64,000 nt of DNA, taken from positions 43,030 to 107,029 of the IMG/VR virus record IMGVR_UViG_3300033156_000775; one strand, given 5' to 3'. The notes below the pieces were generated by a model. That model searched no databases. It had not been told where the DNA came from and was given only the letters and a program-made list of their open reading frames with translations. Positions 19,607 to 63,381 of the stretch are shown piece by piece; position 1 is the stretch's first letter; each line of letters begins with the position of its first letter. The stretch is from a virus. The position numbers and the translations under genes were made by a program.

Positions 19607-19698
19607 AGAGACTTCAAAGAAAGAGGACTAAAGGCTGGAGAATGCCTCCTAACACTTATATAGGAATGCTCCGAATTATAGTGTATGCCCTGGTCTAA
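19603..19698 (+). pseudogene. Truncated 5' remnant of a DUF4326 gene
   Basis: MKRLQRKRTKGWRMPPNTYIG parallels RVQRKRTKGFRL...VYVGRP of 20130..20450. Confidence 0.65.
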
Positions 19699-20155
19699 AA
19701 GAGTTTCGAAAACAAAAGTTGTCTGCCTTTCTTGCGGTCGTAGTATCTATCTTAAGCCTTTACCGAGCTGTGCTGAACCTGCTCACTTGGCATATTATGA
19801 AAAAAGAAAGAAACGAAATAATGAATACAGGAGAAAACGCCGTGAGGAAGCTAGAAGACGAGGTGAAGTGTATCGTTCTGAAAGACCTGAAACAAGAAGA
19901 GCAAGAGAAAGGAGGAAATACAGAAAGGTTAGAGAGGCTTTGCTCCAAAAATTGGGAGGAAAATGTGTGCGATGTGGTTTCTCAGATATTAGGGCATTGC
20001 ATATCCATCATATAAATGGAGATGGAGGGAAAGAACGTAAAAAACTTGGATGGAAATATCTTAAGATTCTCTCAGAAATGCCAGAAAAAGAACTTAGAGA
20101 ACAATATGAAGTCCTCTGTGCGAATTGCCATGAAATCCTCCATCACACCAGTTAG
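19685..20155 (+). CDS. HNH homing endonuclease
   Basis: GGKCVRCG...LHIHHI...LCANCHEILH. Confidence 0.85.
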   Translation: MPWSKRVSKTKVVCLSCGRSIYLKPLPSCAEPAHLAYYEKRKKRNNEYRRKRREEARRRGEVYRSERPETRRARERRKYRKVREALLQKLGGKCVRCGFSDIRALHIHHINGDGGKERKKLGWKYLKILSEMPEKELREQYEVLCANCHEILHHTS

Positions 20156-20450
20156 GGTTCAGAGAAAGAGAACTAAAGGTTTCAGACTTCAAGATGCTAG
20201 TCCTAACGGGCTTCCTGTAGTCTATGTTGGACGTCCATCTAAATGGGCAAACCCATTTAGAATAGGTATTGACGGAGACAGGGAAGCTGTAGTTAGGAAA
20301 TTTAGAGAATATGCTATGAAAAAGTTGAAAGAAGATCCTAACTGGCTAGAACCTTTAAGAGGTAAGGATCTGGCATGCTGGTGTCCTCTAGATAAGCCTT
20401 GTCATGCTGATGTCTTGATAGAGCTTCTAAGAAAGGAGGCTGGTAAATGA
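20130..20450 (+). CDS. DUF4326 family protein
   Basis: VYVGRPSKWANPF...LRGKDLACWC...PCHADVL. Confidence 0.9.
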   Translation: MKSSITPVRVQRKRTKGFRLQDASPNGLPVVYVGRPSKWANPFRIGIDGDREAVVRKFREYAMKKLKEDPNWLEPLRGKDLACWCPLDKPCHADVLIELLRKEAGK

Positions 20451-21403: not shown

Positions 21404-21604
21404 ATGCTAGGTATTCCAGAAGCCCAAGCAGAGGTGCTATTCGATATAATACAGCTTTGCAACAAGCATGGAATTGACATTGTTGATCTTGAGGGTTATC
21501 TACAAGATCTCATATGGATTGAGGATCTTACAAGAGCTTCAGGGAAAGGTGTAGTCCGGACTACACTTAGAGAAGCTCTGGAAAGACTAGGCACTACAGA
21601 TTGA
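21404..21604 (+). CDS. Small hypothetical protein (contains palindrome)
   Basis: ORF. Confidence 0.45.
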   Translation: MLGIPEAQAEVLFDIIQLCNKHGIDIVDLEGYLQDLIWIEDLTRASGKGVVRTTLREALERLGTTD

Positions 21605-21909
21605 AAGAGAGAAGCTTATGGACTAATGGACTAATATTTACAAATTTATTTCTGTTTAGGAAACAAATAATGTAGTCCGGACTACATCTTAACTTAATCA
21701 TTGGAAATTTATCTGGTACTTTAGGTGAAGGAAATGAATGAGATATTGTTTAAACTAGGACATAGGATAGATGAGCTTGAAGAGAAACTGAACCTAGTCA
21801 TTGCAGCTAATCAATATCCACATCTAAGAAACCAGATCCTAAGGAGAATCTTGAGTAATAGTGCCCGTTCTTAGTACTCCTACCACTACAAATTATCTCT
21901 ATTTCCACA

Positions 21910-21921
21910 ATATTTATATTT
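21910..21921 (+). promoter_or_regulatory. Putative TATA box for the ncRNA array
   Basis: ATATTTATATTT about 50 nt upstream of first RNA unit. Confidence 0.35.
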
Positions 21922-21969
21922 GAAAGGGCTATCTTGAGTCCTTCACTGGTAAACGAATAATGAAACGTG

Positions 21970-22028
21970 ATGTGACAATGATGGAGCTTACAAACACGGA
22001 GTCTGTTGAGCTCCATTAGCTCTCACAT
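21970..22028 (+). ncRNA. Y-RNA-like unit 1 (minimal)
   Basis: ATGTGA/TCACAT outer stem, TGATGGAGCTT/GAGCTCCATTA inner stem, conserved TACA. Confidence 0.7.
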
Positions 22029-22038
22029 AAGTTGATTG

Positions 22039-22170
22039 GTGTGACTTGGACAGGAGCTTACAGGTCTAAAGCGTCACCCTGCTAAGGTGAAGATCTAGGT
22101 TCAAGTCCTAGCATGTCCACCATACTGGGCATGTGGCTGAAGTGGTTTAGAGCTCCTGTCACCTTCACAC
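22039..22170 (+). ncRNA. Y-RNA-like unit 2 with circularly permuted tRNA (anticodon GCT, internal ACCA)
   Basis: GACAGGAGCT/AGCTCCTGTC; anticodon arm TCACC-CTGCTAA-GGTGA; T arm CTAGG-TTCAAGT-CCTAG; acceptor CATGTCC-ACCA-tact-GGGCATG; D elements GCTGAAGTGG. Confidence 0.85.
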
Positions 22171-22180
22171 AGATTAAGTG

Positions 22181-22272
22181 ATGTGCCTAGCTAGGAGCTT
22201 ACAAACTGTGGCTATGGATACACGGTTAAGCTGGTAGGTCCAGCTGGTTAGAAGCTCCTAGCACTTGCACAT
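22181..22272 (+). ncRNA. Y-RNA-like unit 3
   Basis: ATGTGC/GCACAT; GCTAGGAGCTT/AAGCTCCTAGC; internal hairpins. Confidence 0.72.
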
Positions 22273-22279
22273 ATCTAAG

Positions 22280-22363
22280 ATGTCCCATAGACAGGAGCTT
22301 ACAAACTGCCCCAACCAAACTAAAGCTGGCAACTCTAGAAGAAAGCTCCTGTCACCTGGACAT
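22280..22363 (+). ncRNA. Y-RNA-like unit 4
   Basis: ATGTCC/GGACAT; GACAGGAGCTT/AAGCTCCTGTC. Confidence 0.72.
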
Positions 22364-22392
22364 ATCCTGTAAACACACTGGAGGATGATGAA

Positions 22393-22590
22393 ATGTCTAT
22401 ACTTAGGGTGGTAGTTGGACAGGACATTCAGGAGCTAGAAGTATCTGAGAACATGGCTAGACTGTCAGATGAGGAGATACTTAGCTTTGTAAGGGAAGCT
22501 ACAAATAGACCTGTAGATCCAGAGGACTTTGTAGTGGATAGGACAGAAAACAACAACATAGTGGTTAGGCCTAGAGCTGTCTATGGATAG
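22393..22590 (+). CDS. Ubiquitin-like small protein ending RPRAVYG
   Basis: GGAGG SD; beta-beta-alpha-beta-beta pattern; C-terminal Gly. Confidence 0.65.
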   Translation: MSILRVVVGQDIQELEVSENMARLSDEEILSFVREATNRPVDPEDFVVDRTENNNIVVRPRAVYG

Positions 22591-22733
22591 TGACAATATT
22601 GGATGAGATATTATCCATTCCAGATCCTAGTGGCCCTAGAAATTTCATTAAGAGGAATCTCAGGGTAGGAAAGGCTATAGATCAATACGGACATATCTAT
22701 CCTACTTATATATCTAAAGCTATCTATGGATAA
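22590..22733 (+). CDS. 47-aa micro-ORF ending KAIYG (same tail as upstream Ubl)
   Basis: GTG overlapping upstream stop; MTILDEILSIP...YISKAIYG. Confidence 0.5.
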   Translation: MTILDEILSIPDPSGPRNFIKRNLRVGKAIDQYGHIYPTYISKAIYG

Positions 22734-22743
22734 GGGCTGAACA

Positions 22744-22896
22744 TTGACTGATAATTCTAAACACATATTAACACCGAAGAAACTATTAGAGAAGTTTCTT
22801 AAAGTGTCTCTTCCTGCCTATATAATTGGGCTAGAGATATTCCCTGAATCTGGAGCTATATGGATAATCAAAGAAGATAATATGGATGTCCATTGA
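22744..22896 (+). CDS. 50-aa micro-ORF
   Basis: TTG start; fills the gap before RNA unit 5. Confidence 0.35.
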   Translation: MTDNSKHILTPKKLLEKFLKVSLPAYIIGLEIFPESGAIWIIKEDNMDVH

Positions 22897-22898
22897 AG

Positions 22899-23027
22899 GT
22901 GTGCTTTATGGATAGGAGCTTACAGCACACAGGGCTACCAGATCCTGTAGTATGGGTTCAAGTCCCGTCATAAGCAGCAGCTTGGCTATGTAGTGCAACT
23001 GGACAAGAGCTCCTATCACCTGCACAC
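22899..23027 (+). ncRNA. Y-RNA-like unit 5 with permuted tRNA-like domain (8-nt anticodon loop)
   Basis: GATAGGAGCTT/GAGCTCCTATC; D stem GTGC/GCAC; CAGGG-CTACCAGA-TCCTG; ATGGG-TTCAAGT-CCCGT; D loop AACTGG. Confidence 0.82.
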
Positions 23028-23068
23028 AATAGCTTAGCGGGTCCTCACTTTCCTGTCTAAGTTACCTG

Positions 23069-23199
23069 GTGTACCATGATGAGAGCTTACAAACCCAGTG
23101 TCGGTGGGAGAGATGTGGGTTCAAGTCCCACTATCCCTACATGGGATATGGTCTAACTGGCTGAGGACGCTTAATGTATAGCTCTCATCTCCTGTACAC
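23069..23199 (+). ncRNA. Y-RNA-like unit 6, YrlA-type topology (T arm, loop-closed acceptor stem, D arm)
   Basis: GATGAGAGCT/AGCTCTCATC; GTGGG-TTCAAGT-CCCAC; TATCCC-tacat-GGGATA; GTCT-AACTGGCTGA-GGAC. Confidence 0.82.
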
Positions 23200-23416
23200 T
23201 TTAATCCTCGTAGCGAAGTTAGAACGGATATGAGTTGATCTAATTTGCCAATCGATGTAAATCCATCTGAGCGTTGTATCTTTACTGAATTACCAGTTAA
23301 ATGTAGAATTAGAGCTGAGTTTAATCCAAAACCTGAGCTCTTAGTCAAGTTCTGTAGTATTTGTCCTGTTTTGATGGTGATAAAAAATAATATGAAATGA
23401 AAAGGAGAAATAGGTT

Positions 23417-24871
23417 ATGTCAGTAGATGAAAGAATACCCATATATCAAGAGCTCTTCCAGTCTATACTAGATTGTCCACATGGAAACCTAGAGGAGACA
23501 TTCAGAGTCCATAAGGAAGTCCTAGAGAAGAACCCACTGTTCTATATGAAGATGGCTGCTTGGTACATGAAGAATGGGATGGTTAGAGACCACAAAGTTG
23601 CTTTTGTAAAGACATTGATGGAGGCTGATGATCCTACTTTGAGGGATGAGGGATGGGCTCTTATTCAGAGGCTGCCCATACACTTGTTAGCTCAGGTAGT
23701 CCGGTCTACAAAGAAGACTAAGGCACTACGGTCAGCCGTGAAGCACAAGCTAGCTGAAATGCCATATAACAGGCTAGTGTCTGAGATCCTTAGATCATCT
23801 AAAGACCTTAAGAGCATGGTTGTTGCTCTACACATACCTACAACCAAGTCTTCAAACTTGAACTTTGAGACTATAGGAACTGAATTGTTCACTAAGAATC
23901 GTCCAATAAGGAGAGTCTTTGCTCAGCTAAGGAATGAGGAAGACCCAGATAAAGTAGCTGTCTTGCTTGAGAAGCTACCTATCCCATCCTACATTGCCAT
24001 GACCTCTATCAAGGTACGTACACCTGAAATAGTGAGAGTGCTAGTCAAACGTATGACTCCTAATGAGCTTATACAGTCTCTTAACATGCTGGGTAGGTTG
24101 AGAGCTATCAAGCCTAACATGGACATTATTAGGGGGAAGCTAGATAAGCTTGTATCTGACCCTAGAGTGAACGCTATGAGAGTCCTCAACATCCTACAGC
24201 ATCTAGAGCCAGCTCTAGTTCCCTATGAAGTGTTTGAGGTACTTGAGAGAGCTGTGTCCAGAAAAGCAAAGAGCATAAGCAAGATAGATGCTAGGGTCTC
24301 CCTCCACATTGACACTTCAGGTAGCATGGAGCCTGCTATTGAGATAGGGAAGATGCTGGCTACATCACTATCCATTGCATGTAAAGAGCCTCCTACGGTA
24401 TACAGTGTGTCTAGCACTCCATTCAAGGTTCAGCCTAGTAGCTACACTCCCTCAGGATGGAAGGAATCTTTCAGTCTACTGAGAGCTAATGGTGCTACCC
24501 CTCTTGGAGCAGGAATATCCCTAATGAAGCAGCATGGAGACACATGTGATGTCATCATACTGGTCACCGACACAGGGGAGAACTCATTCCCCAAGTTTGC
24601 TGATGAGTACCAGACATTAGGCAACAAGCCTAGAGTGATAATCCTCAATGTCAGCAGACACCCTGATAGAGGGTTCTTAGGGTCCCTCAGAAGAGCTAAT
24701 GTATCCTTTGAAATGCTACAGGTTAGAAGAGTAGATCAATACTCAGTGGACCAAGTGGTTACCCTTATAGGAGAAAGTAGCCCCTTCAAGACCATAATGG
24801 AGATAATGAACACTGATGTCCCATTGAGACCTACATGGACTAAGAAGCCCCAGTACTGGCTGAAGAAATAG
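23417..24871 (+). CDS. TROVE/Ro60-like helical protein with C-terminal vWA domain
   Basis: Long all-helical N-terminal region (NPLFYMKMAAWY...RDHK; MTPNELIQSLNMLGR); MIDAS DTSGSM, GATPL, ILVTD. Confidence 0.75.
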   Translation: MSVDERIPIYQELFQSILDCPHGNLEETFRVHKEVLEKNPLFYMKMAAWYMKNGMVRDHKVAFVKTLMEADDPTLRDEGWALIQRLPIHLLAQVVRSTKKTKALRSAVKHKLAEMPYNRLVSEILRSSKDLKSMVVALHIPTTKSSNLNFETIGTELFTKNRPIRRVFAQLRNEEDPDKVAVLLEKLPIPSYIAMTSIKVRTPEIVRVLVKRMTPNELIQSLNMLGRLRAIKPNMDIIRGKLDKLVSDPRVNAMRVLNILQHLEPALVPYEVFEVLERAVSRKAKSISKIDARVSLHIDTSGSMEPAIEIGKMLATSLSIACKEPPTVYSVSSTPFKVQPSSYTPSGWKESFSLLRANGATPLGAGISLMKQHGDTCDVIILVTDTGENSFPKFADEYQTLGNKPRVIILNVSRHPDRGFLGSLRRANVSFEMLQVRRVDQYSVDQVVTLIGESSPFKTIMEIMNTDVPLRPTWTKKPQYWLKK

Positions 24872-49354: not shown

Positions 49355-50038
49355 TTGACAATTATTATGGATAGCAATGAAGCTTCAGAAGCTCCAGCAA
49401 TAAAGCAGAAGCTTAGGGAAAGAGGGATTAGAGTAGAAGTCCAGCATCTAGAGGTAGGAGACTACATTATTGGAGGACTATGTGTAGAGAGAAAGGACAT
49501 TGATGACTTCATAGCTTCAGTGAATGACAGGAACAACCGTTACTGGAACCAGCTGTATAATATGAAGCTTAATTATGACAGGAGAATTCTATATGTGGTT
49601 GGACAGTATCCTAGAAGGGTACCTAAGTATAAGAACAGACCATTCCTCCTACATGACTTCATGGTTTGGGTGTCATGTACATCATACTATTCATATCAGG
49701 TTCCTGTAATCCATGTCTTTACTTTAGATGAGTTCATAGACCATCTAGTCTGCTACCACAACAGATATGGCAAACTAGGTAAGTCTATTAGACCACTAAG
49801 AGCTAAGAAGGTTAAGCGGACTACATTTCAGATCTGCAGTGACATATATTCCATGTTCCCTGGTATTGGAAGACAGGTAGCTGATGAGCTTGCTAGGGAA
49901 TATTCACTACATAAGTTTTTTAATATGGACAGAGATCTAATGTCCAAAGTCAAAGTTGGGAAGCGTAGGTTAGGCATTAGGGGAGAACGTATGTATGACA
50001 TTATCCATTACGATCATAAATTAGAAGAGGTGAAGTGA
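49355..50038 (+). CDS. ERCC4/XPF (Hef-like) nuclease with HhH
   Basis: DSNE, GDY, VERKxxxDF, FPGIG. Confidence 0.9.
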   Translation: MTIIMDSNEASEAPAIKQKLRERGIRVEVQHLEVGDYIIGGLCVERKDIDDFIASVNDRNNRYWNQLYNMKLNYDRRILYVVGQYPRRVPKYKNRPFLLHDFMVWVSCTSYYSYQVPVIHVFTLDEFIDHLVCYHNRYGKLGKSIRPLRAKKVKRTTFQICSDIYSMFPGIGRQVADELAREYSLHKFFNMDRDLMSKVKVGKRRLGIRGERMYDIIHYDHKLEEVK

Positions 50039-58995: not shown

Positions 58996-59190
58996 TTGAT
59001 GGTGGACTATATAATTAAACAATTAGATATTGACATTTGGGAAATAATCTCTCCTAAGGGAGAACTTTATCATGTCTGGATAGACGCTAACGGAATCTTT
59101 AAATGCACATGTCCACATCACGTCTATCACAAAGGAAAAGTAGAATGCAAACACATTAAGATGGTGAAAAAACGCTATTTGAGGGAATGA
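58996..59190 (+). CDS. SWIM zinc-finger protein
   Basis: CTCP...CKHI. Confidence 0.8.
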   Translation: MMVDYIIKQLDIDIWEIISPKGELYHVWIDANGIFKCTCPHHVYHKGKVECKHIKMVKKRYLRE

Positions 59191-60173
59191 TATTGAGTAA
59201 CTTAACGGATATTAAAGGCTTAGGGCCTAAGAAAGCTGAGCTTCTAGAGGAGAAGGGAATAACAACTATAGAGCAAGTGTCCATCATGGAGCCTGAGGAG
59301 CTAAAGGTTATTCTAGGTGTCAACCTCAACAAGGCTAAGGAAATACTGGAGTCAGCTAATGAGCTCACTGAGGGTAAGATAAGGCTGATGACAGCTAAGG
59401 ACATCTATGAAATAAGGAAGAAGACCATCAAGAGGATACCTACTGGGTCAGCAGCTCTTGATGAGATGATAGGTGGAGGAGTACCTACATGTTCGCTGGT
59501 AGGGCTGTTTGGACGTCTGGGAAGTGGTAAGTCCCAGACTTGCTATCAGCTAATAGTAAACTGCATGAAATATTTAGGTAGAAAAGCAGCTTTCATAGAG
59601 ACAGAGCCCCAGACATTGGACTTAGATAGGATACTACAAATGGCCAATGATCAGGGAGTTGAGCTAGACTTAGATGATATCTATGTCATCCCAGCTGAGA
59701 TGATAGACAGTCCAGAATGGCTGTACAAGGCATACCAGTTTATCCATCAGCGTATCCTTGAGGGCATGGACATTGGGCTAATAGTAATAGACAGCTTCAA
59801 TGCTCCATTTACTCAGACAGCTAGGGAACATCTACCTATCAGGTCTAGAGCTCAGCGTAGACATATAGGGTTCCTGCAAATGCTAGCTAGGAAATACAAC
59901 ATAGCTGTAGTAATGACATTCCAGGTGATGGGAGTCCCAGATCAGGGGCAGCAGCTTCAGGCTAGAAAGGACTTTGGAATAATGTATCCTCCAGTGGCAT
60001 CTGAAGCTGTGAAGCATGGAGTTAACTACTGGATAGCTCTAAGGAGAAAAGCTGCATCCAAGGGACCATTTCATGAAGCTACACTGGCTGATGGTCCAAT
60101 GCCTAGGGCTACAGTTGAATTCTTGATAGACAAGATAGGCATAAGAGATATTGGTGGACGTAGAGGAGCTTAA
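59187..60173 (+). CDS. radA: RadA recombinase
   Basis: N-terminal HhH (IKGLGP), PTGS..LDEMIGGG, GRLGSGKSQ, IVIDS. Confidence 0.92.
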   Translation: MILSNLTDIKGLGPKKAELLEEKGITTIEQVSIMEPEELKVILGVNLNKAKEILESANELTEGKIRLMTAKDIYEIRKKTIKRIPTGSAALDEMIGGGVPTCSLVGLFGRLGSGKSQTCYQLIVNCMKYLGRKAAFIETEPQTLDLDRILQMANDQGVELDLDDIYVIPAEMIDSPEWLYKAYQFIHQRILEGMDIGLIVIDSFNAPFTQTAREHLPIRSRAQRRHIGFLQMLARKYNIAVVMTFQVMGVPDQGQQLQARKDFGIMYPPVASEAVKHGVNYWIALRRKAASKGPFHEATLADGPMPRATVEFLIDKIGIRDIGGRRGA

Positions 60174-60498: not shown

Positions 60499-60866
60499 TG
60501 CCTAAAATAGTTATTCTAGGATCATGCAAGTATGAGCCATATGAGATAATGTTTGTACCTAAGAAAGTATCTGAAGAGCTGTATAATACTGAGGAAGGAT
60601 ACAGGATAGCCTCTAAAAAGTGCTACACAGCTATTGATGAAGCTGATGAAGTCTGGGTATATATTCCTGAAGGAATGGGAGAGCATACAACCAGGGACTT
60701 TGAATATGCACTTTCAAAGAACAAGAAAATATTTCTAGTAGTTGACTTTGAAAAGTTCAAGATATGGCAAAATATAGTCCTGAAGCTCAAGGAGCTTTTA
60801 ACCAGAATGTGGATTGAAATTATTAAGGAACTAGAGAAGATAGGACGGTATGAACTTGGACTATGA
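60498..60866 (+). CDS. Nucleoside-deoxyribosyltransferase-like (DUF4406-like) protein
   Basis: IDEADEVWVY..G.GEHT...EYA....K.I. Confidence 0.55.
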   Translation: MPKIVILGSCKYEPYEIMFVPKKVSEELYNTEEGYRIASKKCYTAIDEADEVWVYIPEGMGEHTTRDFEYALSKNKKIFLVVDFEKFKIWQNIVLKLKELLTRMWIEIIKELEKIGRYELGL

Positions 60867-63381
60867 GAAGTGGACGAACAAGATCTACTTAGGAGATGCA
60901 TTGTCAGTACTCAAGAAGCTACCTAGCAACCTAGTGAATTGTATAGTCACTTCTCCTCCATACTACAGACTTAGAGACTATCAGGTGGAGGGACAAATAG
61001 GGCTGGAGGACACTCCTCAGGAATACATTGAGAGGCTAGTAGATGTCTTTAGGGAAGCTAGGAGAGTTCTTAGGGACGATGGGGCCCTATGGTTGAACCT
61101 AGGGGACACTTACTATTCTGGTAAGGGAGAGATCTATTCTGGTAGAAGCTCAGATGACTACACTAAAGCTGTGTCCCATAGCTGGAGACCTAAAGTCTTT
61201 AGCAACTGGCTTAGACATAAGCAACTGTTACTGATCCCTCCTAGAGTAGCCATAGCTATGCAGGAGGATGGATGGCTCCTTAGGAATGTTGTTGTCTGGG
61301 AGAAGACAAATCCAATGCCCTCTTGTTTATCTGAGGATACAGAGATTTACATTCGAGAGAACAATCAAGTCAAAGTTCTTACTTTAGGAGCACTTTATGC
61401 TAGTGGTATAGAAGGGAAGGAAATATTAACACCTCATGGCTGGAAAAGAATCAGGAAAATATGGAAAGTGAAAAAAGAAAAATACTTACAATTCAGGTTT
61501 GGTTCTTCCAGTGAGGTTAAATGTTCTTTAGATCACCGATTTCCTGTTAGTCATGACAATAGAAGGAAAAATTATGAAGTCAAGAAAGCAAAAGACTTCA
61601 GGGACGACCCTCACAGAATGCTAGATAGGTTGCTTTTTGTTCCAATAGGGAAATTTCTAGAAGGTAACATAAAAGAGATATATGGAGTGAAGTTGGACTA
61701 TGAGCTAGGCAGGTTCCTTGGTCTAATAGTAGCTGAGGGCGGTTTTAATGCTCCACGAGGCCATCAATGTAAAATTACTCTTTCAAGAGAAGAAAAAGAG
61801 ACCCTTAGCTTCTTTACGAATGTTCTAAAAGAAAGATTTAACCAGTATTTTAGCATCTATGAAATGGACAACTATGTGAGTTGCCTATTTAGTTCTCTGT
61901 TAATTAGAAAGCTCTATGAAAAAGTCTGTAAAGGTAAGTGTAAAGAAAAAGAGCTTAACTTGAATTTTATTCTGAATACACCTCTTGAGTTTAGACAAGG
62001 TCTGTTCGATGGAATTATTGAAGGAGATGGGCATTATGATGAAAATGGAAGGATTAGCTATGGGACAGCTTCCGAAGCTCTGAGGAACCATGTTTATCTC
62101 TTAGCAAGTTCGATAGGCTTACTTGCTTCTAGACATCCTCCCATAAAACGACTTGATAAAAGAACTCAGAAGGTATATACTTTATATCCCCTAACAATTC
62201 CACTTTCTCTTCAAAGGGAAGTTATCAAAGGTGAAATGGTAAAGATGGGCTATTATAATCGAAAACTCCAGAAATATATCCCTTCAAAATATCGTAATGA
62301 GTTCTATGCCAAAACGCTGAAAATTACAAATATTAAAGTTGAGAAGACAGAGTGTGAATTAATAGATTTAGAAGTGGAAGGTGGTCTATTCCTGATTAAT
62401 GGTGGACTAGTTACTCATAACTCGGTAAAGGACCGTTTAAGCTGTACTTGGGAGTATATGTTCTTCTTTGTTAAGAATGAAAAGTATTATTTCGACTTAG
62501 ATGCTATCAGGGTTCCACATAAATCTAAGATAAGACAATATGGGATACGTCCAAAACAGAAGGCTAGTCCAGACTCGGTTGTTGGTGGTCCACATCGTCT
62601 CACTAGGGAATATCATCCTCTAGGGAAGAATCCAGGAGACACATGGAGCTCTAGTGAGCTAGAGGAAAAATTCACTCAGGGAATTCTGTTAGTTAGAGAA
62701 GCAATGGAACAGAGTGATCGAACATACAAAACCAAGTATACTGGAACAGGGATGGAAGGCAAACACTTTGCTTCGAGAGAAGGTAGAATAGCTAAAAGCA
62801 GAGAAGTGGCTAAAGCAGTGGCTAAACAGATATTCCCTGATAGTCCAGCATTGCAGAGACAATTCATCAAGTTCTACCATAATTTTGTTGGGCATCCATT
62901 TGGAAAGAATCCAGGGGACATATGGAAGCTACCAACAGCTAGCTTCAAGGAAGCCCATTTCGCCGTATTCCCTAGTGATCTAGTTAAGAGACCAATATTG
63001 GCAACTTGTCCACGGTGGATATGTAAAAAATGTGACAGGCCTAGAGAACGTGTAGTTAAGATAGAGAAGCTAGAGCCTGAAGATGACTCTACCAGGAAGA
63101 AGAGAGGAAGATCACAGGCTAAAATGGCTGTGATGAGGGAAGCCCCAAGCAAGGGATGGCTATCTATCCACAGGACTGTTGGATGGACAGACTGTGGATG
63201 TAATGTGGGATGGAGGAAGGGAATAGTGCTAGATCCATTCTGTGGGTCTGGAACTACATTGTATGTAGCTCAGCAGCTAGGAAGGTCCTGGATAGGTATA
63301 GACATTAAGCCTGAATATGTAGAGATGAGTAAGCGTAGGATAAGTAAGATATATGCAGATGACCTGTCCAGGTGGATATAA
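60850..63381 (+). CDS. Beta-class N4/N6 DNA methyltransferase with intein
   Basis: TSPPYY, RVLRDDG, W.K.NPMP, HFAVFP, VLDPFCGSGTT. Confidence 0.93.
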   Translation: MNLDYEKWTNKIYLGDALSVLKKLPSNLVNCIVTSPPYYRLRDYQVEGQIGLEDTPQEYIERLVDVFREARRVLRDDGALWLNLGDTYYSGKGEIYSGRSSDDYTKAVSHSWRPKVFSNWLRHKQLLLIPPRVAIAMQEDGWLLRNVVVWEKTNPMPSCLSEDTEIYIRENNQVKVLTLGALYASGIEGKEILTPHGWKRIRKIWKVKKEKYLQFRFGSSSEVKCSLDHRFPVSHDNRRKNYEVKKAKDFRDDPHRMLDRLLFVPIGKFLEGNIKEIYGVKLDYELGRFLGLIVAEGGFNAPRGHQCKITLSREEKETLSFFTNVLKERFNQYFSIYEMDNYVSCLFSSLLIRKLYEKVCKGKCKEKELNLNFILNTPLEFRQGLFDGIIEGDGHYDENGRISYGTASEALRNHVYLLASSIGLLASRHPPIKRLDKRTQKVYTLYPLTIPLSLQREVIKGEMVKMGYYNRKLQKYIPSKYRNEFYAKTLKITNIKVEKTECELIDLEVEGGLFLINGGLVTHNSVKDRLSCTWEYMFFFVKNEKYYFDLDAIRVPHKSKIRQYGIRPKQKASPDSVVGGPHRLTREYHPLGKNPGDTWSSSELEEKFTQGILLVREAMEQSDRTYKTKYTGTGMEGKHFASREGRIAKSREVAKAVAKQIFPDSPALQRQFIKFYHNFVGHPFGKNPGDIWKLPTASFKEAHFAVFPSDLVKRPILATCPRWICKKCDRPRERVVKIEKLEPEDDSTRKKRGRSQAKMAVMREAPSKGWLSIHRTVGWTDCGCNVGWRKGIVLDPFCGSGTTLYVAQQLGRSWIGIDIKPEYVEMSKRRISKIYADDLSRWI
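61324..62421 (+). mobile_element. Intein with LAGLIDADG endonuclease (366 aa)
   Basis: NPMPS|CLSEDTEI ... LGLIVAEG, GIIEGDG ... VTHN|SVKDR. Confidence 0.93.

What the first reader, a model, noticed from the sequence alone, without database searches (positions are those of the whole stretch)
22039..23199. Circularly permuted tRNA modules opened at two different positions
Seen: units 2 and 5 read D-stem 3' strand, anticodon arm, T arm, acceptor 3' strand, linker, acceptor 5' strand, D-stem 5' strand/D loop. The shared stem is therefore grafted into the D loop and the anticodon arm is retained. Unit 6 has T arm, loop-closed acceptor and D arm, with the shared stem near the anticodon position, as in YrlA. 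Inference: anticodon-retaining versions could be decoys for host anticodon nucleases or precursors of permuted tRNAs. Permuted tRNAs are known in Thermofilum and red algae and mature via a circular intermediate. In unit 5, joining at the shared ACA rebuilds a normal D arm GTGC-AACTGGACA-GCAC.
Basis: partly seen in the sequence, partly recalled or inferred. Interest (0 to 1): 0.88.

Follow-up and report, generated by a model that had tools for sequence, protein, structure and literature searches.

The report
Viral Y RNAs carrying rewired tRNAs
A virus, probably of an archaeon, encodes six small RNAs next to its Ro60 gene, and three of them carry a tRNA-shaped module wired back to front, two with the break in the D loop and an intact anticodon arm, a wiring I did not find described for Ro60 partner RNAs.

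Summary
Six co-oriented units (21970-23200) share one "handle": outer stem, small internal loop, 10-11 bp inner stem ending GGAGCU/AGCUCC, then UACA. They lie just upstream of a 484-aa divergent Ro60/Rsr gene (23417-24871).

Units 2 and 5 contain all four tRNA arms in permuted order: D-stem 3' strand, anticodon arm, T arm, loop-closed acceptor, D-stem 5' strand with D loop. The handle leaves from the 3' end of the D loop. Unit 6 is an ordinary YrlA-type module whose break is near position 26.

Support comes from three related metagenomic viruses, folding energies, ARAGORN and a tRNA profile on re-permuted sequences. Unit 2 also scores as an ordinary tRNA (53 bits), but that fold competes with the conserved handle and is about 32 kcal/mol worse in the full unit.

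My reading is that these are YrlA-like Y RNAs, a known kind of circularly permuted tRNA mimic, in a new wiring that keeps the anticodon arm.

Maturation into real tRNAs by the archaeal splicing route is not supported, because no bulge-helix-bulge motif is present. The anticodon-nuclease decoy idea is untested.

This scan has already reported other tRNA-shaped Y RNAs beside phage Ro60 genes on other DNA. The D-loop break appears only in this small virus clade.

The parts
21970..22028 (+). Unit 1: handle only (outer stem AUGUGA/UCACAU, inner stem UGAUGGAGCU/AGCUCCAUUA, 20-nt insert)
22039..22170 (+). Unit 2: handle plus a complete tRNA-like body opened in the D loop. Anticodon GCU (22081-22083). 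Closed 7-bp acceptor with G3-U70, A73 and encoded CCA (22119-22122).
   Evidence: Parse. Energies. Orthologues. Pair counts.
22048..22122 (+). Alternative ordinary-order tRNA reading of unit 2. It uses the handle 5' strand as its acceptor and D-stem 5' strands.
   Evidence: ARAGORN. RF00005 53.3 bits. Only -18.0 kcal/mol against -50.6 for the permuted fold.
22180..22275 (+). Unit 3: handle with two small hairpins and no tRNA features
22280..22363 (+). Unit 4: handle with a 44-nt, largely unstructured insert
22393..22590 (+). Conserved 65-aa ORF inside the array, ending RPRAVYG
   Evidence: tblastn identity 98, 95, 91 and 44% in L147, L143, L144 and L001.
22899..23027 (+). Unit 5: handle plus a tRNA-like body opened in the D loop. 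The D stem GUGC (22993-22996) / GCAC (22925-22928) forms across the module. The anticodon loop has 8 nt.
   Evidence: Parse. Energies. The acceptor hairpin covaries in three genomes.
23068..23200 (+). Unit 6: YrlA-type module. It has a 4-bp hairpin with a 7-nt loop, a T arm, a closed 6-bp acceptor, a local D arm and an 11-nt linker.
   Evidence: Circular ARAGORN places the junction 7-13 nt before the anticodon.
23417..24871 (+). Divergent Ro60/Rsr (TROVE ring plus vWA domain with a MIDAS DxSxS motif), the presumed protein partner of the handles
   Evidence: The family profile hits PDB Ro60 9nen (1e-16), 1yvp, phage Ro60 9l5y/9kop and Rsr 2nvo. Invariant D299, S301, S303, T361 and D385.

Best explanation
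The six units are Y RNAs of the YrlA kind, the non-coding partners of the virus's own Ro60 protein.

The shared handle (outer stem, 4-6 nt internal loop, 10-11 bp inner stem, then UACA) is the Ro60 docking site. Whatever sits inside the handle is a variable effector module.

In units 2, 5 and 6 the module is a tRNA look-alike with a loop-closed acceptor stem, so it can present a tRNA-shaped elbow to tRNA-binding proteins while tethered to Ro60.

Units 2 and 5 are an unusual wiring.
- The body keeps a full anticodon arm.
- The handle leaves from the 3' end of the D loop, at about position 21/22.
- The D stem is formed by two strands that lie about 65 nt apart.

Shown here: the sequence elements, their conservation and covariation, and Ro60 homology.

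Inferred: Ro60 binding, the L-shaped fold, and the tethering function.

By analogy with M. smegmatis YrlA, unit 2 (7-bp acceptor, encoded ACCA) is likely to be cut by RNase P in the acceptor loop. That would leave a two-piece RNA with a free CCA end.
For: Ro60 homology and position:
- A profile of the ORF's family matches solved Ro60/Rsr/TROVE structures at E 1e-16 to 1e-7, and the MIDAS residues are invariant.
- All units are co-oriented with the gene and within 1.5 kb upstream of it, as reported for YrlA (PMC4201824).

The handle:
- In 18 of the 19 GCTTACA-anchored units tabulated in five related loci the inner stem pairs 10/10, with compensatory changes such as GACAGG/CCUGUC, GAUAGG/CCUAUC, GCUAGG/CCUAGC and GAUGAG/CUCAUC. 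The nineteenth, L143 298-494, pairs 8/10 and lacks the T arm.
- The same "...GCU UACA(UG) ... AGC..." handle, followed by a T loop, lies upstream of a Ro60 homologue on the same strand in 13 of the 116 IMG/VR loci that carry the motif.

The permuted fold:
- Across six unit 2 and unit 5 sequences from three genomes, 99% of cells pair. Fourteen pairs change on both sides, against at most 3 in the slid controls.
- Three of the four D-stem pairs covary between unit 2 and unit 5.
- The unit 5 acceptor hairpin has three unrelated sequences but always forms: CAUA(A)GC/GCUAUG, CGGAGGC/GCUUCCG and CAGGAGC/GCUCCUG.

Energies:
- Unit 2: -50.6 (permuted), -41.6 (local D arm), -18.0 (ordinary tRNA).
- Unit 5: -41.2, -28.5 and -13.2 for the same three folds.

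Published and database comparisons:
- Rfam YrlA gives weak partial matches to the orthologues (26.1 and 25.1 bits).
- YrlA is described as a circularly permuted tRNA mimic, and M. smegmatis YrlA is cut by RNase P and receives CCA (10.1101/312249, PMC4201824).
Against: - No unit reaches the Rfam YrlA gathering score, and nothing matched in the window even at E<=10.
- The CGAA-type motif of published YrlA handles is absent. The 3' internal loop here reads CACCU/CACUU.
- For unit 2 taken alone, the cross-module D stem cannot be told apart from a local D arm, because both candidate 3' strands read (A/G)AGC.
- The pair counts rest on two paralogue groups of three close orthologues, in an alignment fitted to the structure.
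- There are no expression, binding or probing data.
Confidence: 0.72

Rival explanations
1. Units 2 and 5 are decoys or sensors for tRNA-cleaving defence nucleases. This is a functional refinement of the Y-RNA reading. The retained anticodon arm attracts a host anticodon nuclease. The Ro60 particle then either absorbs the attack or couples it to the neighbouring viral RNA ligase and phosphoesterase for tRNA repair.
For: - The anticodon arm is retained, although published YrlA lacks an anticodon loop (10.1101/312249).
- U33-G34-C35-U36-A37 of unit 2 is conserved in three genomes while positions 32 and 38 vary.
- An RNA ligase (PF09414) and a metallophosphoesterase lie 2-4 kb upstream.
- Ro60/TROVE with a tRNA-like partner has been discussed as an RNA-repair platform in phages (PMC7824862).
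Against: - The unit 5 loop changes between close relatives (CUACCAGA, CUAUCAGA, CUGAAGA), so no single anticodon is held there.
- Anticodon-like loops in other viral handles are very diverse (GUU, GCU, UCC, UUU, UCU, GAU, UCA, CAU, UGU).
- No nuclease or host is known.
Confidence: 0.13
2. Units 2 and 5 are precursors of working tRNAs. Two routes are possible. In the first, the handle is excised and the ends are ligated to a circle that RNase P and RNase Z then open, as for type I permuted tRNA genes of Cyanidioschyzon merolae. In the second, they act as two-piece tRNAs after cleavage in the acceptor loop, as two-piece tmRNA does.
For: - The topology equals the type I permuted pre-tRNA, with its junction at 20/21 in the D loop (PMC3978253).
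- Re-permuted unit 2 is called a tRNA by ARAGORN at 103 of 132 junction choices.
- Unit 2 has a 7-bp acceptor, A73 and an encoded CCA.
- The host is probably an archaeon and so would have a splicing endonuclease.
- A viral RNA ligase is encoded nearby.
Against: - No bulge-helix-bulge motif at the handle. Hits are at the level seen in shuffled sequence and are not conserved.
- The helix next to the break is 11 bp, not 4 bp.
- The unit 5 anticodon loop has 8 nt in two of three genomes.
- Unit 2 combines a GCU anticodon with a 4-nt variable loop, whereas tRNA-Ser needs a long arm (general knowledge).
- The CCA is lost in L147.
- The same handle also carries non-tRNA inserts (units 1, 3 and 4).
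Confidence: 0.07
3. Unit 2 is simply an ordinary viral tRNA gene (22048-22122). The downstream acceptor-like and D-like strands are the remnant of a partial tandem duplication and have no function.
For: - RF00005 scores 53.3, 56.5 and 37.8 bits in the three genomes.
- ARAGORN calls it in two of the three.
- Ordinary-order tRNAs do sit inside similar handles in other viruses, for example L004 2901-2973 and L003 2449-2518.
Against: - Its acceptor and D-stem 5' strands are the conserved handle strand, which pairs 10/10 with the handle 3' strand in every unit.
- It has a G6-A67 mismatch and only one nucleotide between the acceptor and D stems.
- G1 is U in L147, which costs the reading about 15 bits.
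- The downstream GGGCAUG is invariant while the loop before it varies in sequence and length.
- The tRNA profile scores the downstream 5' part higher than the upstream one in all three genomes.
- Unit 5 has no ordinary-order equivalent in its orthologues.
Confidence: 0.08

Closest known systems
YrlA-type bacterial and phage Y RNAs (Rfam RF02553; Chen et al. 2014, PMC4201824; Wang et al. 2018, 10.1101/312249)
   Same: - Encoded on the same strand just upstream of a Ro60/Rsr gene.
- A stem formed by the 5' and 3' ends docks Ro60.
- The module has a T arm, a loop-closed acceptor stem, a UA/UG connector and a D loop with A14, G18 and G19.
- A conserved UA follows the handle 5' strand.
- Already described in print as resembling circularly permuted tRNAs.
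- Unit 6 follows this plan.
   Different: - Published YrlA lacks an anticodon loop, and the Ro60 stem takes the place of the anticodon stem.
- Units 2 and 5 keep a 5-bp anticodon arm with a 7- or 8-nt loop.
- Their handle leaves from the D loop, so the D stem is made of two distant strands.
- Scores against RF02553 are far below the gathering threshold.
- Six units stand in one array.
- The host is probably archaeal.
Type I circularly permuted tRNA genes of Cyanidioschyzon merolae (junction 20/21 in the D loop; Soma 2014 review, PMC3978253); permuted tRNAs of Thermofilum pendens (PMC3218864)
   Same: The 3' part of the tRNA lies upstream of the 5' part. The acceptor is closed by a short linker. 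The break is in the D loop.
   Different: - Those precursors carry a bulge-helix-bulge motif at their termini and mature through a circular intermediate into decoding tRNAs.
- Here no such motif is found.
- The flanks form a long conserved handle that is shared with non-tRNA units.
- The anticodon loops are irregular or unstable.
Two-piece (circularly permuted) tmRNA (Rfam RF04321)
   Same: In unit 2 the order is T arm, acceptor 3' strand with ACCA, a short intervening segment, then the acceptor 5' strand. G3-U70 is present.
   Different: - Only 22-24 bits against a gathering score of 47.
- There is no tag reading frame and there are no pseudoknots.
- ARAGORN reports no tmRNA.
Deinococcus radiodurans Yrn1 (PMC4201824)
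   Same: A Y RNA reported to have a different arm order from YrlA and a possible anticodon arm. Variation in wiring among Y RNAs is therefore already in print.
   Different: Yrn1 lacks a clear D arm, and its anticodon-like loop has 6 nt. No sequence similarity was seen here.

Membership tests
YrlA / Y RNA partners of Ro60 | Encoded near a Ro60/Rsr (TROVE plus vWA) gene and on the same strand | tested here: met
   The units lie at 21970-23200 and the ORF at 23417-24871, all on the + strand. The family profile hits Ro60, Rsr and phage Ro60 structures.
YrlA / Y RNA partners of Ro60 | The 5' and 3' ends pair into a conserved stem with an internal loop (the Ro60-binding module) | tested here: met
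   10/10 inner-stem pairs and 6/6 outer-stem pairs in 18 of 19 units tabulated (the L143 298-494 row pairs 8/10 and 5/6), with compensatory changes. Binding to Ro60 itself was not tested.
YrlA / Y RNA partners of Ro60 | tRNA-like module with T arm, loop-closed acceptor and D arm, and no anticodon loop | tested here: inconclusive
   Unit 6 fits. Units 2 and 5 have the T arm and the closed acceptor, but the D stem is split and an anticodon arm is present.
YrlA / Y RNA partners of Ro60 | Score at or above the Rfam RF02553 gathering threshold (69 bits) | tested here: not met
   No match in the window even at E<=10. The orthologues reach 26.1 and 25.1 bits.
Circularly permuted tRNA genes (algal and archaeal) | The 3' half lies upstream of the 5' half, and re-permutation gives a cloverleaf | tested here: met
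   ARAGORN on re-permuted and circularised sequences. tRNA profile scores are well above shuffles.
Circularly permuted tRNA genes (algal and archaeal) | Bulge-helix-bulge motif formed by leader and trailer at the junction | tested here: not met
   A strict scan (3-nt bulges, 4-bp helix) gave counts like those in shuffled sequence, with nothing at the handle and nothing conserved. Relaxed forms of the motif were not scanned.
Circularly permuted tRNA genes (algal and archaeal) | The mature product is a decoding tRNA with a 7-nt anticodon loop and a coherent identity set | tested here: not met
   Unit 5 has an 8-nt loop in the window and in L147. Unit 2 has a GCU anticodon with a 4-nt variable loop and an Ala-type G3-U70.
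Ordinary tRNA (RF00005) | Score above the gathering threshold, in ordinary order | tested here: met
   Unit 2 only: 53.3 bits. The fold competes with the conserved handle, at -18.0 against -50.6 kcal/mol.
Two-piece tmRNA (RF04321) | Score above the gathering threshold, with a tag reading frame | tested here: not met
   22 bits against a threshold of 47. ARAGORN reports no tmRNA.

The most novel reading that the evidence does not exclude
Viral Ro60 handles are a general scaffold that displays whole tRNA bodies, anticodon arm included, in several circular permutations.

Permutations seen here:
- Break in the D loop (this virus clade).
- Break near position 26.
- Break in the variable region.
- Break at the acceptor/D junction.
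- No break at all.

In this reading the anticodon-bearing versions act as baits that detect or absorb host tRNA-cleaving defences and hand the damage to the virus's own RNA ligase.

Unit 2 would be cut by RNase P in its acceptor loop. That would make it a two-piece RNA with a free CCA end and an alanine-type G3-U70, so it could be chargeable.
Probability: 0.12. Interest if true: 0.85.

Novelty: new variant of a known kind. Interest (0 to 1): 0.55.

Why it matters
Y RNAs are thought to have arisen from tRNAs, possibly from dimeric tRNA transcripts. How they arose, and what their tRNA-like ends bind, is still open.

These units bear on that question in three ways.
- The Ro60 handle can be attached to a tRNA body at more than one point.
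- A complete anticodon arm can be kept.
- Unit 2 still reads as a whole tRNA followed by the first third of a second one, which is what the dimeric-tRNA model predicts for an intermediate.

The locus sits beside RNA ligase and phosphoesterase genes in what is probably an archaeal virus. It therefore offers a compact system for testing whether viral Ro60 particles take part in tRNA repair or in countering tRNA-targeting defences.

Tried and rejected
Searches that found nothing useful:
- Pfam, PHROGs and single-sequence PDB searches of the 484-aa ORF gave nothing. Only a profile of its homologues revealed Ro60.
- blastn of the locus against GenBank phages found no match.
- A specific DNA pattern for unit 2/5-type units gave one chance hit inside a coding region in IMG/VR and none in 185,579 genomes. 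Further orthologues came only from the single metagenome scan.
- No sigma-70 promoter enrichment and no intrinsic terminators in 21600-23500.

Readings rejected or left open:
- The ordinary-order acceptor alternative in unit 5 (GCUU(U)AUG/CAUAAGC in the window) is rejected. Its orthologues have entirely different acceptor strands and no upstream complement.
- The local D-arm (YrlA-style) model is rejected for unit 5, where only 2-3 of 4 pairs form and the energy is -28.5 against -41.2 kcal/mol. It remains possible for unit 2.

- Two reviews (PMC10870794 and PMC6047535) are not held.
Full report
**What is there**

The window is the 3' 64 kb of a single 107,029-bp virus contig with 41% G+C.

Between 21970 and 23200, on the + strand, lie six units. 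Each shares the following features:
- a 6-bp outer stem (GUGUGA/UCACAC type);
- a small internal loop;
- a 10-11 bp inner stem ending GGAGCU(U)/(A/G)AGCUCC;
- UACA directly after the 5' strand.

In the GCTTACA-anchored units I tabulated from the window and four related loci, 18 of 19 pair 10/10 in the inner stem. The exception is L143 298-494 (8/10), which also lacks the T arm. The six variable positions change in a compensatory way, for example GACAGG/CCUGUC, GAUAGG/CCUAUC, GCUAGG/CCUAGC, GAUGAG/CUCAUC and GGUGGG/CCCACC.

GAGCTTACA occurs six times here and four times in the rest of the genome, counting both strands. GGTTCAAGTCC occurs three times in the genome, all inside units 2, 5 and 6.

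**The neighbouring gene**

The 484-aa ORF at 23417-24871 has no Pfam, PHROG or direct PDB match. It does have 521 homologues in the representative protein library.

A 40-sequence profile of these homologues gives the following PDB matches:
- human Ro60 9nen, E 1e-16;
- Xenopus Ro60 1yvp, E 5e-13;
- Thermus phage Ro60 9l5y/9kop, E 5e-11, over residues 25-394;
- Deinococcus Rsr 2nvo, E 1e-7.

D299, S301, S303, T361 and D385, which form a MIDAS motif, are invariant. Eleven members match Pfam vWA_Ro60. The protein is therefore a divergent viral Ro60.

Upstream lie an RNA ligase (PF09414) and a metallophosphoesterase.

The virus is tailed, since it encodes a terminase. It also encodes a RadA-type recombinase (HHH_5 plus Rad51), an ERCC4 nuclease, an ATP-dependent DNA ligase, NrdD and a family B polymerase. 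The nearest Atlas cluster for the polymerase is 95% archaeal, mostly Thermoproteota. The host is probably an archaeon, but this is not shown.

**Anatomy of units 2, 5 and 6**

A regular-expression parse gives identical layouts for unit 2 and unit 5 in the window and in two related metagenomic contigs. These are L147 (Ro60 90% identical) and L144 (83%).

The order of elements is:
1. handle 5' strand;
2. a 3-9 nt loop;
3. 4-nt D-stem 3' strand;
4. N26;
5. 5-bp stem with a 7-8 nt loop;
6. 4-nt variable loop ending in U;
7. T arm (5 bp, UUC[A/G]AGU);
8. acceptor 3' strand, loop, acceptor 5' strand;
9. U8-R9;
10. 4-nt D-stem 5' strand;
11. D loop AA(C/G/U)UGG...A;
12. handle 3' strand.

Unit 6 has a T arm, a 6-bp closed acceptor, UG, a local D arm (GUCU-AACUGGCUGA-GGAC) and an 11-nt linker before the handle. 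It also has a 4-bp hairpin with a 7-nt loop, placed six nucleotides before the T arm.

**Is the permuted cloverleaf the real fold?**

*Comparative evidence.*
- The unit 5 acceptor hairpin has three unrelated sequences in the three genomes and always forms: CAUA(A)GC/GCUAUG, CGGAGGC/GCUUCCG and CAGGAGC/GCUCCUG.
- Both T stems show compensatory changes.
- The unit 5 D-stem strands GUGC and GCAC are invariant and pair 4/4. The alternative local pairing with the handle strand gives only 3, 3 and 2 of 4 pairs.
- I built a covariance model from the unit 5 orthologues using this structure. It finds the unit 2 orthologues at 56-63 bits.
- On the resulting six-sequence alignment, 99% of cells pair. Fourteen pairs change on both sides, against 0-3 when the partners are slid by one to three columns. 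Three of the four D-stem pairs covary between the unit 2 and unit 5 types.
- Two caveats apply. There are only two paralogue groups of three close orthologues, and the alignment was fitted to the model.

*Energies (RNAeval).*

| Fold | Unit 2 (kcal/mol) | Unit 5 (kcal/mol) |
|---|---|---|
| Permuted model | -50.6 | -41.2 |
| Shortened handle plus local D arm | -41.6 | -28.5 |
| Ordinary-order tRNA | -18.0 | -13.2 |
| MFE | -53.6 | -47.1 |

*Re-permutation tests.*
- ARAGORN calls re-permuted unit 2 a tRNA(GCU) at 103 of 132 junction choices. With the 3'-located piece shuffled, it does so for 28%.
- Re-permuted unit 5 is called at 50 of 143 junction choices, with a 4-nt anticodon.
- A sequence profile built from 305 phage tRNAs scores the constructs as follows.

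| Construct | Window | L147 | L144 | Shuffled control |
|---|---|---|---|---|
| Unit 2, permuted | 32.2 | 22.9 | 36.5 | 22.5 +/- 1.7 |
| Unit 2, ordinary order | 25.9 | 20.5 | 31.1 | |
| Unit 5, permuted | 19.3 | 22.7 | 28.9 | 11.2 +/- 0.7 |

**The ordinary-tRNA reading of unit 2**

ARAGORN and Rfam call 22048-22122 a tRNA. The Rfam scores are 53.3 bits in the window, 56.5 in L144 and 37.8 in L147.

This reading takes the handle's own 5' strand (GGACAGG-A-GCUU) as the acceptor and D-stem strands. Several points count against it:
- It has a G6-A67 mismatch and a single connector nucleotide.
- It loses G1 in L147.
- It leaves unexplained the invariant downstream GGGCAUG, which pairs 7/7 with CAUGUCC across a loop that varies in sequence and length.

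For unit 2 alone, the D-stem partner is ambiguous. GCUU or GCUG occurs twice, and so does (A/G)AGC.

Seen another way, unit 2 is a whole tRNA followed by the first third of a second one. That is the intermediate expected under the published dimeric-tRNA model for the origin of YrlA (10.1101/312249). This is my inference.

**Wider family**

The handle motif followed by a T loop is common in IMG/VR. In 13 of the 116 loci returned, a Ro60 homologue lies just downstream on the same strand.

I read these units by eye and ran ARAGORN on the circularised inserts. The module wirings fall into these groups:
- YrlA-like, with a short anticodon-like hairpin and the junction about 6-13 nt before the anticodon;
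- T arm, acceptor, D arm, anticodon arm, with the junction in the variable region (L003, L088, L089, L125);
- D arm, anticodon arm, T arm, followed by a capped hairpin;
- complete ordinary-order tRNAs inside the handle (L003 2449-2518, L004 2901-2973).

A junction in the D loop was seen only in the window, L147 and L144. The closest IMG/VR relative, L001 (Ro60 60% identical), has only two plain handles. Unit 6 is absent from L147 and L143. The module content of the array therefore changes quickly.

**Processing**

A strict bulge-helix-bulge scan found nothing at the handle and nothing conserved. The helix next to the break is 11 bp. The algal and archaeal maturation route for permuted tRNAs (PMC3978253 and PMC3218864) is therefore not supported.

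Unit 2 has a 7-bp acceptor, A73, an encoded CCA in two of three genomes, and G3-U70. M. smegmatis YrlA, which also has a 7-bp acceptor, is cut by RNase P and receives CCA in vivo (PMC4201824). I therefore expect unit 2 to be nicked in its acceptor loop. This is an inference.

**Comparison with print and with this scan**

YrlA RNAs have already been called circularly permuted tRNA mimics that lack an anticodon loop (10.1101/312249). Yrn1 is noted to have a different arm order and a possible anticodon arm (PMC4201824).

Type I permuted tRNA genes of C. merolae have the same break, at 20/21 in the D loop (PMC3978253).

In the papers I could search, I found no description of Y RNAs that keep a full anticodon arm or whose Ro60 stem leaves from the D loop.

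Earlier reports of this scan describe other tRNA-shaped Y RNAs beside phage Ro60 genes on other DNA. The general theme is therefore recurrent, and this particular wiring is the new element.

**Verdict**

The permutation at two positions holds. The tRNA-precursor idea is unlikely. The decoy idea is untested.
- The finding is a new variant of a known kind.

Noticed in passing
window 21551, 21672, 18809, 25505, 31229, 42721, 45544, 48457, 51379, 53938, 60176 and others: The 14-nt palindrome GTAGTCCGGACTAC occurs 29 times in the 107-kb genome, mostly right at gene ends or in intergenic gaps. Two copies lie just upstream of the RNA array. It may be a terminator-like hairpin or a protein-binding site.
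   Followed up: partly
window 22393-22590: A 65-aa ORF ending RPRAVYG lies inside the RNA array. It is conserved at 98, 95, 91 and 44% in L147, L143, L144 and L001, and a similar C-terminus (RPEAVFG) lies upstream of Ro60 in the distant locus L003. The two following small ORFs (22590-22733 and 22744-22896) have no counterpart in the relatives.
   Followed up: partly
L004 2901-2976; L003 2448-2519; L088 (unit 1792 nt upstream of Ro60): In other viral Ro60 loci, complete ordinary-order tRNAs sit inside a Y-type handle, directly after the GCUUACA motif. Examples are Ile-UAU with an encoded CCA in L004, at 46-63 bits on RF00005.
   Followed up: partly
L003 2640-2780; L125, L088 and L089 units (266, 288 and 621 nt upstream of Ro60): These handles carry the order T arm, closed acceptor, D arm, anticodon arm. 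That is a tRNA body opened in the variable region. The anticodons are GAU, UGU, UCA and CAU.
   Followed up: partly
window 60850-63381: A DNA methylase ORF with a LAGLIDADG domain in its middle, probably an intein.
   Followed up: no
window 19685-20450: An HNH endonuclease ORF (19685-20155) overlaps a DUF4326 ORF (20016-20450), between the phosphoesterase gene and the RNA array.
   Followed up: no
window 59187-60173, 49355-50038: A RadA-type recombinase (HhH plus Rad51 domain) and an ERCC4 nuclease. Both are archaeal-type repair genes and suggest an archaeal host.
   Followed up: partly
window 22024-22058 with 22151-22185: The outer-stem strands of neighbouring units are mutually complementary: the 3' strand of unit 1 can pair with the 5' strand of unit 3 around unit 2. 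A polycistronic transcript could therefore adopt alternative inter-unit pairings.
   Followed up: no
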